Origin: Escherichia coli
GTDB taxonomy: Bacteria > Pseudomonadota > Gammaproteobacteria > Enterobacterales > Enterobacteriaceae
Assembly (NCBI RefSeq): GCF_003334335.1
Contig: NZ_QOWQ01000177.1
Strand: one strand, 5' to 3'
DNA: 517 nt
Of the stretch, positions 1 to 517 are shown in pieces; position 1 is the first letter of the stretch; the number at the start of each line of letters is the position of its first letter. Both the position numbers and the translations under genes were made by a program. Under the pieces are notes generated by a model. It was given only the letters and a program-made list of their open reading frames with translations, had not been told where the DNA came from and did no database searches.

Positions 1-93
1 ATGCTGGTTGGCTCCCGCCGTATATCCCAGGACATCAGTACCCGTGATGAAGGCGGGGGCGGAAAGGTCGTGGTTATCGGGCGGCAGGGGTAA
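1..93 (+). CDS. I: Tail (tip) assembly protein I, C-terminal end; 5'-truncated by the window edge
   Basis: Frame +1 from position 1 reads MLVGSRRISQDISTRDEGGGGKVVVIGRQG followed by TAA at 91-93. This closely resembles the C-terminus of phage lambda gpI as I recall it (...GSRVVSQEISTADEGDGGQVVVIGR). Its position directly upstream of J matches lambdoid tail-gene order. The ATG at 1-3 is most likely an internal Met codon, not the start. GC content is about 63% by hand count, typical of the coding flanks. Confidence 0.8.
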   Translation: MLVGSRRISQDISTRDEGGGGKVVVIGRQG

Positions 94-139
94 AAAGAAT
101 AAAAAAATCCCGCAGTGATCGCGGACAGGAACTGCGGGA
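94..139 (-). terminator. Predicted intrinsic (rho-independent) terminator for a leftward transcript
   Basis: Perfect 9-bp inverted repeat: TCCCGCAGT at 108-116 pairs with ACTGCGGGA at 131-139, with a 14-nt loop (117-130). On the minus strand the stem is followed immediately by UUUUUUUAUUCUUUUU (complement of the A-run at 92-107). On the + strand no U-tract follows the stem (GAGAGTTACG), so it is oriented for the minus strand. The loop is larger than in typical terminators, which lowers confidence. Confidence 0.5.
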
Positions 140-198
140 GAGTTACGAAGATTAAGTGTAAGGAATTATTCTTATGTCACGACAAAAAAAATTAACGC
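100..198 (-). ncRNA. Candidate small non-coding RNA of about 100 nt (promoter-to-terminator unit without an ORF)
   Basis: The interval between the predicted start (about 198) and the end of the terminator U-tract (about 100) has no ATG-initiated ORF on the minus strand; the only coding-like string is GTG ACA TAA. The predicted transcript is 5'-GCGUUAAUUUUUUUUGUCGUGACAUAAGAAUAAUUCCUUACACUUAAUCUUCGUAACUC-[hairpin]-UUUUUUUAUUCUUUU. It has a U-rich 5' region and a terminator hairpin with U-tail, the usual layout of Hfq-type small RNAs. The boundaries are predictions. Confidence 0.3.
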
Positions 199-204
199 AG
201 CGAA

Positions 205-232
205 ATTATACGCGCCACAGTCAGTTTGTGAA
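205..232 (-). promoter_or_regulatory. Predicted sigma70 promoter on the minus strand (leftward)
   Basis: Read on the minus strand: -35 TTCACA (complement of 227-232, 5/6 match to TTGACA), a 16-bp spacer, then -10 TATAAT (complement of 205-210, 6/6). The predicted start is a G about 7 nt downstream, near + coordinate 198. It lies in the AT-rich spacer and fires away from J toward the terminator at 94-139. Confidence 0.4.
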
Positions 233-256: not shown

Positions 257-272
257 ATTCAGTCATGATACA

Positions 273-300
273 GGCATCCTCCGGGGTGCCTGTTGTTTTT
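273..300 (+). terminator. Terminator-like GC hairpin with U-rich tail on the + strand, 36 nt upstream of the J start
   Basis: GGCATCC at 273-279 pairs with GGGTGCC at 284-290, giving 7 bp including one G-U pair, with a 4-nt loop TCCG. It is followed by TGTTGTTTTT at 291-300. An AU-rich stretch (AAUUUUUAUU, 250-259) precedes the hairpin. The A-run would precede the stem on the minus strand, so the orientation is +. It could be an attenuator or stability element of the late transcript, or the 3' end of a + strand small RNA. Confidence 0.35.
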
Positions 301-322
301 GTGAGTGAACAATTATCACGGT

Positions 323-330
323 AAGAGGTG
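323..330 (+). promoter_or_regulatory. Ribosome-binding site (Shine-Dalgarno) of J
   Basis: AAGAGGTG at 323-330 is complementary to the 16S 3' end, with a 5-nt spacer (ATGTA) before the ATG at 336. The ATG at 331-333 is followed immediately by TAA, so it is not a productive start. Confidence 0.6.
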
Positions 331-335
331 ATGTA

Positions 336-517
336 ATGGGCAAAGGCGGCGGCAGGGCGCACACACCGCGCGAGGCGAAGGATAATCTCAAATCCACGCA
401 GATGATGAGTGTGATTGATGCGATTGGTGAGGGACCGATAGAAGGTCCGGTGAAGGGACTGCAGAGTATCCTGGTGAACAAAACCCCGCTGACGGACACG
501 GACGGTAATCCCGTGAT
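336..517 (+). CDS. J: Host specificity protein J / central tail fibre (tip attachment protein J), N-terminal 60 codons; 3'-truncated by the window edge
   Basis: ATG at 336-338 opens a frame that stays open to the window end: MGKGGGRAHTPREAKDNLKSTQMMSVIDAIGEGPIEGPVKGLQSILVNKTPLTDTDGNPV. It matches the lambda gpJ N-terminus as I recall it (MGKGSSKGHTPREAKDNLKSTQLLSVIDAISEGPIEGPVDGLKSVLLNSTPVLDTEGN) at most positions. A strong Shine-Dalgarno sequence lies 5 nt upstream. GC content is about 62% by hand count. Confidence 0.9.
   Translation, partial: MGKGGGRAHTPREAKDNLKSTQMMSVIDAIGEGPIEGPVKGLQSILVNKTPLTDTDGNPV

What the first reader, a model, noticed from the sequence alone, without database searches (positions are those of the whole stretch)
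336..517. J N-terminus is lambda-like but with local substitutions
Compared with lambda gpJ as I recall it, residues 4-8 differ (GGGRA versus SSKGH region), as do several positions after residue 22 (QMM versus QLL, KGLQSILVNKTPLTDTDGNPV versus DGLKSVLLNSTPVLDTEGN). The N-terminal domain anchors J in the tail tip and is usually conserved. Receptor specificity lies in the C-terminus, outside this window, so this fragment says nothing about host range.
Basis: partly seen in the sequence, partly recalled or inferred. Interest (0 to 1): 0.2.

Follow-up and report, generated by a model that had tools for sequence, protein, structure and literature searches.

The report
Common prophage J tail-tip N-terminus
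The last 182 bases of the window encode the first 60 residues of a lambda-type tail-tip protein J, in a version found unchanged in many E. coli prophages and Shiga-toxin phages, so its differences from lambda are ordinary lineage divergence.

Summary
Window 336-517 (+) encodes MGKGGGRAH...DGNPV, which is 43/58 identical to lambda gpJ residues 1-58 (E 2e-29). It follows a strong ribosome-binding site and the 3' end of tail gene I.

The differences are not special:
- The 60 residues are 100% identical to J of Escherichia phage PhiR5_1 (whole window 99.6% identical in DNA), to J of an Stx2a phage, and to 21 IMG/VR viral contigs.
- 149 phage records are at least 90% identical.
- Divergence from lambda is no higher here (72% identity) than across the whole protein (65.5%).
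- dN/dS is 0.12.
- At G5 and G31 the window agrees with distant J-like proteins, and lambda is the odd one out.

By homology to solved lambda tail tips, these residues begin the hub "HDII-insertion" domain, which packs against gpL and gpI. Host range cannot be read from them.

Verdict: already known, low interest.

The more interesting feature lies just upstream, outside the finding. The 242-nt I-J spacer carries, on the opposite strand, an unannotated allele of the Hfq-dependent sRNA family EcOnc22-24/PasB. It is only 66% identical to PasB and is present in about 1,250 of 5,426 complete E. coli genomes.

The parts
336..517 (+). First 60 codons (plus 2 nt) of tail-tip / host-specificity gene J, ATG start. 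This is the finding.
   Evidence: Translation. 43/58 identical to lambda J. 60/60 to PhiR5_1 J. Annotated as J in PhiR5_1, NCTC9112 and E2348/69. Matches PDB 8iyk_J residues 1-58.
323..332 (+). Shine-Dalgarno sequence AAGAGGTGAT for J
   Evidence: Read directly. The J leader (301-335) is 100% identical to E2348/69 PP6.
1..93 (+). 3' end of tail assembly gene I (30 codons, stop TAA at 91-93)
   Evidence: 21/28 identical to lambda gpI residues 196-223. Annotated as tail tip assembly protein I in PhiR5_1.
101..198 (-). Context, not part of the finding: an sRNA gene of the EcOnc22-24/PasB family. Terminator stem is 138-132 / 115-109, followed by U7 at 107-101. The invariant core UUAAUCUUC is at 155-147. 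The start is predicted near 198; the mature 5' end is near 184 by homology to PasB.
   Evidence: Terminator scan. Alignment and consensus fold of 18 alleles. PasB northern probe matches window 106-125 at 20/23. PasB coordinates fall in the I-J spacer of E2348/69. The EcOnc22/23/24 probe matches the Sakai Sp15/14/11 spacers.
205..232 (-). Sigma-70 promoter of the sRNA (TTCACA, 16 nt spacer, TATAAT; 11/12 match)
   Evidence: 95% identical to E2348/69.
270..303 (+). Terminator-like hairpin (270-293) with a U-rich tail, just upstream of the J ribosome-binding site
   Evidence: Fold of 262-305 gives -20.6 kcal/mol, z = -4.65. Lambda has a hairpin of unrelated sequence at the same position.

Best explanation
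Window 336-517 is the start of an ordinary, functional-type gene J (tip attachment protein / baseplate hub plus central fibre) of a lambda-like siphovirus prophage. It belongs to the J lineage common in E. coli prophages and Stx-converting phages. Its 17 differences from lambda gpJ in 60 residues reflect old divergence of two J lineages under purifying selection, not a local or adaptive change. By homology to the solved lambda tail tip (inferred, not shown here), these residues form the first beta-strands of the HDII-insertion hub domain. That domain packs against the C-terminal Fe-S domain of gpL and is contacted by the gpI plug. The segment therefore helps build and close the trimeric tail-tip cone and has no role in receptor choice.
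For: - Homology to lambda J: 74% identity, E 2e-29. PDB lambda tail-tip chains 8iyk/8iyl/8k35/8xcg/8xci/9e7m match residues 1-58.
- Exact 60/60 matches: PhiR5_1 J, Stx2a phage Stx2_EH1846, and 21 IMG/VR contigs, which with PhiR5_1 make 22 of the 84 comparison sequences.
- 149 phage records are at least 90% identical over the 60 residues, whereas the lambda clade sits at 70-74%.
- The whole-window DNA matches places in 1,889 of 5,426 complete E. coli genomes.
- Purifying selection: versus lambda pN 0.139, pS 0.622, omega about 0.12. Versus E2348/69 PP6 there are 9 synonymous differences and 1 non-synonymous.
- No local anomaly: identity to lambda is 0.72 for residues 1-60, 0.75-0.90 for 61-360, and 0.655 overall.
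- 51/58 positions are conservative.
- Distant J-like proteins keep GGG(K) at positions 4-7 and G at position 31, as the window does and lambda does not (23gd gp24 and the F2-pyocin fibre 25vf).
- The 99.6%-identical phage PhiR5_1 has an intact 1157-aa J with the full gpJ domain set (FNIII-A_GpJ, Phage-tail_3, Ig_J, Ig_J_second, Phage_Tail_Tip, Ig_GpJ_C) in the gene order H-M-L-K-I-J-lom.
- Structural role taken from PMC10721106 and PMC11101478.
Against: Only 60 of roughly 1,157 codons are in the window, so whether this particular copy is intact is unknown. Some prophage copies, such as Sakai Sp15 and Sp14, have J split into two CDS. dS against lambda (1.33) is near saturation, so the omega value is rough. 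The structural role is transferred from lambda by homology. No structure of this allele was examined, and the substituted residues were not mapped onto coordinates.
Confidence: 0.93

Rival explanations
1. The N-terminal differences are a short recombinant (mosaic) patch: a locally replaced segment inside an otherwise lambda-identical J.
For: Lambdoid tail genes are mosaic in general. A sharp mosaic boundary does exist at the J start codon: loci with an identical J N-terminus carry a completely different upstream sequence (sodC) right up to the ATG.
Against: Identity to lambda is flat or rising across the first 480 residues (0.72, 0.75, 0.78, 0.82, 0.87, 0.90, 0.70, 0.82) and is lower further on. 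Nucleotide identity to lambda is 75% with heavily diverged synonymous sites. The boundary lies at the ATG, not inside J.
Confidence: 0.03
2. The substitutions are co-adapted with the partner proteins gpI and gpL of the same tail module. They would then act as an assembly-compatibility determinant between lambda-type and Stx/EHEC-type tail tips.
For: [quoted passage not shown] The I C-terminus in the window has diverged from lambda to the same degree (75% identity). I and J alleles travel together in all loci examined.
Against: Most changes are conservative, and omega is low. No interface mapping or co-variation test was done. Linkage alone explains why the genes travel together.
Confidence: 0.12
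3. The fragment is the start of a decayed, non-functional prophage J remnant.
For: Many E. coli prophages are defective. Sakai Sp15 and Sp14 J are annotated as two CDS.
Against: The 60 codons are intact, have a strong ribosome-binding site, and are identical to those of an isolated phage (PhiR5_1, host given as E. coli C) whose J is full length. Differences from close relatives are almost all synonymous (9 to 1).
Confidence: 0.05

Closest known systems
Lambda gpJ (tip attachment protein J, NP_040600; PDB 8IYK/8IYL/8K35/8XCG/8XCI/9E7M)
   Same: Same gene position after I. Residues 1-58 align without gaps at 74% identity. The close full-length relative has the same domain architecture.
   Different: 17 of 60 residues differ (positions 5-8, 23-24, 31, 40, 43, 45, 47, 49, 52, 53, 56, 59, 60). 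In the full-length relative the C-terminal receptor-binding part is only 35-48% identical. The lambda I-J spacer is 60 nt, against 242 nt here.
J of Escherichia phage PhiR5_1 (PV340545.1, XSB41336.1), of Stx2a phage Stx2_EH1846, and of 21 IMG/VR E. coli prophage contigs
   Same: 60/60 identical residues. For PhiR5_1 the whole 517-nt window is 99.6% identical, spacer included.
   Different: PhiR5_1 differs from the window only by a 2-nt indel in the A-rich run just after the I stop codon.
gpJ of E. coli O127:H6 E2348/69 prophage PP6 (WP_000514675.1)
   Same: 59/60 residues (R7K). The J leader is 100% identical, and I and J are in the same arrangement.
   Different: The sRNA body in the upstream spacer is only 61% identical.
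PasB (EPEC E2348/69, PMC8550237) and EcOnc22/23/24 (EHEC Sakai Sp15/Sp14/Sp11, PMC4104026): Hfq-dependent sRNAs of about 83-85 nt. This applies to the spacer, not to J.
   Same: Same location (I-J spacer) and orientation (antisense to the tail genes). Same terminator stem CCCGCAG/CUGCGGG with U7, a homologous promoter, and the invariant core AAUCUU.
   Different: The window allele is 66% identical to PasB and 66% to the Sakai allele. Its longest shared exact word with PasB is 25 nt. Expression and Hfq binding of this allele have not been shown.

Membership tests
Lambda gpJ family (tip attachment protein J / siphovirus baseplate hub plus central fibre) | Significant sequence homology of the N-terminus to gpJ | tested here: met
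   43/58 identical, E 2e-29. phmmer against PDB 8iyk_J gives E 9.4e-24.
Lambda gpJ family (tip attachment protein J / siphovirus baseplate hub plus central fibre) | Gene position directly downstream of tail assembly gene I in the H-M-L-K-I-J tail-tip cluster | tested here: met
   Window 1-93 is the gpI C-terminus. The full order is seen in the near-identical loci PhiR5_1, NCTC9112 and E2348/69.
Lambda gpJ family (tip attachment protein J / siphovirus baseplate hub plus central fibre) | Full-length architecture: hub domains, FNIII/Ig domains, central fibre, C-terminal receptor-binding Ig domain | not testable with these tools
   The window ends at codon 60. The architecture is present in the 99.6%-identical PhiR5_1 J (Pfam FNIII-A_GpJ, Phage-tail_3, Ig_J, Ig_J_second, Phage_Tail_Tip, Ig_GpJ_C).
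Lambda gpJ family (tip attachment protein J / siphovirus baseplate hub plus central fibre) | Assembles as a trimer with gpL, gpI and gpM into the tail tip | not testable with these tools
   Known for lambda only (PMC10721106). Inferred here by homology.
EcOnc22-24 / PasB sRNA family (I-J spacer, minus strand) | Encoded in the I-J intergenic spacer of a lambdoid prophage, antisense to the tail operon | tested here: met
   PasB (NC_011601.1, 1466343 to 1466261, minus strand) lies between I (ends 1466255) and J (starts 1466496). Window 101-198 aligns to it.
EcOnc22-24 / PasB sRNA family (I-J spacer, minus strand) | Own sigma-70 promoter and a Rho-independent terminator with a long U tract | tested here: met
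   TTCACA-16-TATAAT at 232 to 205, and a terminator with U7. The 7-bp stem is kept in 18 of 18 alleles, apart from one mismatch each in two alleles. No covariation was seen because the stem is invariant.
EcOnc22-24 / PasB sRNA family (I-J spacer, minus strand) | Sequence similarity of the transcribed region to the named members | tested here: inconclusive
   66% identity to PasB and 66% to the Sakai allele. The promoter, terminator and core AAUCUU are shared, but the body has diverged (61% identity). There is no Rfam model for the family, and the window has no Rfam hit above threshold.
EcOnc22-24 / PasB sRNA family (I-J spacer, minus strand) | Expressed as an RNA of about 83-85 nt that binds and depends on Hfq | not testable with these tools
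   Shown for PasB (northern, RIL-seq, loss in delta-hfq; PMC8550237) and for EcOnc22 (about 85 nt, destabilised in delta-hfq; PMC4104026). Not shown for this allele.

The most novel reading that the evidence does not exclude
Nothing novel remains for J itself. The most novel reading the evidence leaves open concerns what abuts the J start codon. The I-J junction is a 'moron' slot, meaning a site where extra genes are inserted into a phage operon. In this window the slot carries an unnamed allele of the EcOnc22-24/PasB sRNA family. This allele was matched in more complete E. coli genomes than the other two alleles searched: 1,254 of 5,426, against 956 for the PasB type and 542 for the Sakai type. 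Its body has diverged (61-66% identity), so it could have a different target set from PasB. Because it is fully complementary to the late I-J transcript, it could also act in cis on tail-gene mRNA. The published PasB census (blastn, word size 28) would not have detected it, since the longest shared word is 25 nt.
Probability: 0.3. Interest if true: 0.35.

Novelty: already known. Interest (0 to 1): 0.08.

Why it matters
For J it matters little. The fragment is a standard allele of a well-studied structural protein, and it carries no host-range information. One practical point follows: lambda is not a good 'consensus' for J. At several N-terminal positions lambda is the outlier, and the prophage allele matches distant homologues.

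The useful by-product is in the spacer upstream. It holds an unannotated sRNA allele present in about a quarter of complete E. coli genomes. This suggests that published counts of the PasB family understate its spread and diversity.

Tried and rejected
- **Rfam scan of the window.** The only hits were MicX at 21 bits (gathering threshold 75) and two archaeal snoRNA models at about 15 bits. All were rejected as chance, and they show the spacer sRNA has no Rfam model.
- **AgvB/AsxR anti-sRNAs as the identity of the spacer sRNA.** Rejected. Those lie at the PR' moron site and have different sequences.
- **Mapping EcOnc22 by its published coordinates.** The coordinates fall about 120-150 nt from the sRNA in the current Sakai record (NC_002695.2). 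I attribute this to a genome version change, which is my inference. I relied on the northern probe instead: its first 23 nt match the Sp15/Sp14/Sp11 spacers exactly.
- **Small + strand ORFs in the spacer (for example the 21-aa ORF at 174-239).** Rejected. The E2348/69 allele lacks the ATG and has a 2-nt indel there.
- **The 78-aa antisense ORF at 263-499.** It has no support and overlaps the conserved J frame.
- **Trans pairing of the sRNA with the J translation-initiation region or the end of I.** Predicted duplex energies were no better than for shuffled sRNAs (93% and 84% of shuffles scored as well or better). Rejected.
- **Covariation support for the terminator stem.** None is possible because the stem is invariant.
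- **A mosaic breakpoint inside the J N-terminus.** None was found.

Full report
**What is in the window.** The 517 bases contain three features on the + strand.
- The last 30 codons of a gene, ending at TAA 91-93. Its product is 21/28 identical to the C-terminus of lambda tail assembly protein gpI.
- A 242-nt spacer at 94-335.
- An open frame from the ATG at 336 to the end of the window.

A Shine-Dalgarno sequence AAGAGGTGAT (323-332) precedes the ATG. The 60 translated residues are MGKGGGRAHTPREAKDNLKSTQMMSVIDAIGEGPIEGPVKGLQSILVNKTPLTDTDGNPV.

**Checking the observation.** BLASTP against lambda J gives 43/58 identities, 51/58 positives, no gaps and E 2e-29. Two details need correcting. Near the start only residues 5-8 differ (GGRA vs SSKG), because G4 and H9 are shared. 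The G31/S31 difference was missed. Over all 60 positions 17 differ.

**Is the allele unusual? No.**
- The whole window is 99.6% identical in DNA to Escherichia phage PhiR5_1 (PV340545.1) and matches places in 1,889 of 5,426 complete E. coli genomes.
- The 60 residues are 60/60 identical to PhiR5_1 J and to J of Stx2a phage Stx2_EH1846.
- They are also identical in 21 IMG/VR contigs. With PhiR5_1, that is 22 of the 84 comparison sequences I assembled.
- Among phage records the distribution is bimodal: 149 records at 90% identity or more (mostly Stx1a/Stx2a/Stx2c-converting phages), and the lambda group at 70-74%.
- The only common polymorphisms within the clade are R7/K7, R12/V12 and a GTG start codon.

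**Is the divergence from lambda 'local'? No.** I aligned the full-length PhiR5_1 J (1157 aa) with lambda J (1132 aa).
- Identity per 60-residue bin is 0.72, 0.75, 0.78, 0.82, 0.87 and 0.90 for the first 360 residues.
- It falls to 0.20-0.70 in the fibre and receptor-binding parts, and is 0.655 overall.
- Substitutions are dominated by synonymous change: pS 0.62 against pN 0.14, omega about 0.12 versus lambda. Versus E2348/69 PP6 there are 9 synonymous changes and 1 non-synonymous.
- At positions 5-6 and 31 the window (GG, G) agrees with distantly related J-like proteins of solved structure, and lambda does not (23gd gp24 'GGGKQHTP...ALGEGE' and the F2-pyocin fibre 25vf 'ALGEGE').

[quoted passage not shown] Strands beta1-beta4 lie within residues 1-71 and belong to the HDII-insertion domain. 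The FNIII-A domain (72-215) is inserted after beta4.

[quoted passage not shown] These hub domains rotate when the tip opens on LamB binding (PMC11101478).

Pfam places FNIII-A_GpJ at 86-207 of PhiR5_1 J and the receptor-binding Ig_GpJ_C at 1027-1157.

**Rivals.**
- A recombinant patch inside J is contradicted by the flat identity profile.
- Co-adaptation with gpI and gpL cannot be excluded, because I did not map the substitutions onto coordinates. The low omega and the conservative nature of most changes make it a minor possibility.
- A decayed remnant cannot be excluded from 60 codons alone. It is unlikely, given identity with an isolated phage whose J is intact.

**The spacer upstream (outside the finding).** Lambda has only 60 nt between I and J. 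The window has 242 nt. On the minus strand there is a near-consensus sigma-70 promoter (TTCACA-16-TATAAT, 232 to 205). About 100 nt downstream there is a Rho-independent terminator: stem CCCGCAG/CUGCGGG at 138-132/115-109, followed by seven U at 107-101.

This is a known sRNA locus. Three lines of evidence identify it.
- The northern probe for PasB, an 83-nt Hfq-dependent sRNA of EPEC E2348/69, matches window 106-125 at 20 of 23 positions (PMC8550237 Table S6).
- The PasB coordinates lie in the I-J spacer of prophage PP6, antisense to the tail genes.
- The first 23 nt of the probe for EcOnc22/23/24 match exactly the I-J spacers of Sakai Sp15, Sp14 and Sp11. These RNAs are about 85 nt and are destabilised in delta-hfq (PMC4104026 Table S2).

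The window carries a different allele.
- Its flanks are 95-100% identical to E2348/69, but the sRNA body is 61% identical.
- Overall it is 66% identical to PasB and 66% to the Sakai allele.
- Its longest exact word shared with PasB is 25 nt.
- Across 18 alleles the invariant parts are the terminator and a core AAUCUU just upstream of it, at 155-147 in the window. This is where Zhu et al. place the PasB seed.

Megablast counts in 5,426 complete E. coli genomes:

| Allele | Genomes | Places |
|---|---|---|
| Window type | 1,254 | 1,749 |
| PasB (EPEC) type | 956 | 999 |
| EcOnc22 (Sakai) type | 542 | 1,246 |

No feature is annotated under any of the matches listed. The 2026 census of Pas sRNAs used blastn with word size 28 and only the E2348/69 query. 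By my reasoning it would therefore not have detected the window-type allele.

In 17 IMG/VR loci with the same J N-terminus, a Cu,Zn superoxide dismutase gene (sodC; NF007628, 218 bits) sits on the minus strand between the sRNA and J. It replaces the sRNA promoter, and similarity to the window resumes exactly at the J ATG. The I-J junction is thus a moron insertion slot.

A stable + strand hairpin with a U-rich tail (270-303; -20.6 kcal/mol, z -4.65) lies just before the J ribosome-binding site. Lambda has a hairpin of unrelated sequence at the same place. I did not pursue its function.

**Verdict.** The finding is real, correctly interpreted and ordinary. It is an already known, very common allele of the conserved N-terminus of tail-tip protein J. 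The interest score for the finding is low. The adjacent sRNA allele is a new member of a known family and is recorded under things noticed in passing.

Noticed in passing
window 101-232, minus strand: An unannotated sRNA gene in the I-J spacer, with promoter at 232-205, terminator at 138-101 and invariant core UUAAUCUUC at 155-147. It belongs to the Hfq-dependent EcOnc22-24 (EHEC) / PasB (EPEC) family but is a distinct allele: 66% identical to PasB, with the body 61% identical while the flanks are 95-100%. It was matched in 1,254 of 5,426 complete E. coli genomes, more than the PasB type (956) or the Sakai type (542). A word-size-28 BLAST with PasB would miss it, because the longest shared word is 25 nt.
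   Followed up: yes
window 270-303, plus strand: A stable GC-rich hairpin followed by a U-rich run, immediately 5' of the J ribosome-binding site (-20.6 kcal/mol, z -4.65). It is conserved in E2348/69 and Sakai. Lambda has a hairpin of unrelated sequence at the same position. It looks like an intrinsic terminator or an RNA-stability element inside the late tail operon. Its function was not examined.
   Followed up: partly
L005 about 340-870 minus strand (also L006-L008, L010, L027 and others; 17 IMG/VR loci): A Cu,Zn superoxide dismutase gene (sodC; NCBIfam NF007628, 218 bits) is inserted between the sRNA and J on the minus strand. It replaces the sRNA promoter, so the sRNA body lies 3' of sodC. 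Similarity to the window resumes exactly at the J ATG. The I-J junction is therefore a moron slot.
   Followed up: partly
J codon 1, 7 and 12 in L003-L084: 19 of the 84 comparison J genes start with GTG instead of ATG. R7/K7 and R12/V12 are the common polymorphisms within the clade.
   Followed up: no
L001 165-2737 (PhiR5_1); L085 719-4191 and L086 (Sakai Sp15, Sp14): The PhiR5_1 tape-measure gene H is annotated as two abutting CDS (165-2498 and 2498-2737), whereas NCTC9112 has a single CDS. Sakai Sp15 and Sp14 J are each annotated as two overlapping CDS. These may be frameshifts or pseudogenes and were not checked.
   Followed up: no
L001 7914-8807 (PhiR5_1 J residues 861-1157): The C-terminal fibre and receptor-binding part of the closest full-length relative matches PDB 9wca/9wcb 'A8 gpJ 713' (E 7.5e-161) much better than it matches lambda gpJ (35-48% identity in the last 140 residues). 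This suggests a receptor-binding type different from lambda's.
   Followed up: no
window 94-100: The only difference between the window and PhiR5_1 is a 2-nt indel in the A-rich run between the I stop codon and the sRNA U-tract (taaaaaGAat vs taaaa--aat).
   Followed up: no
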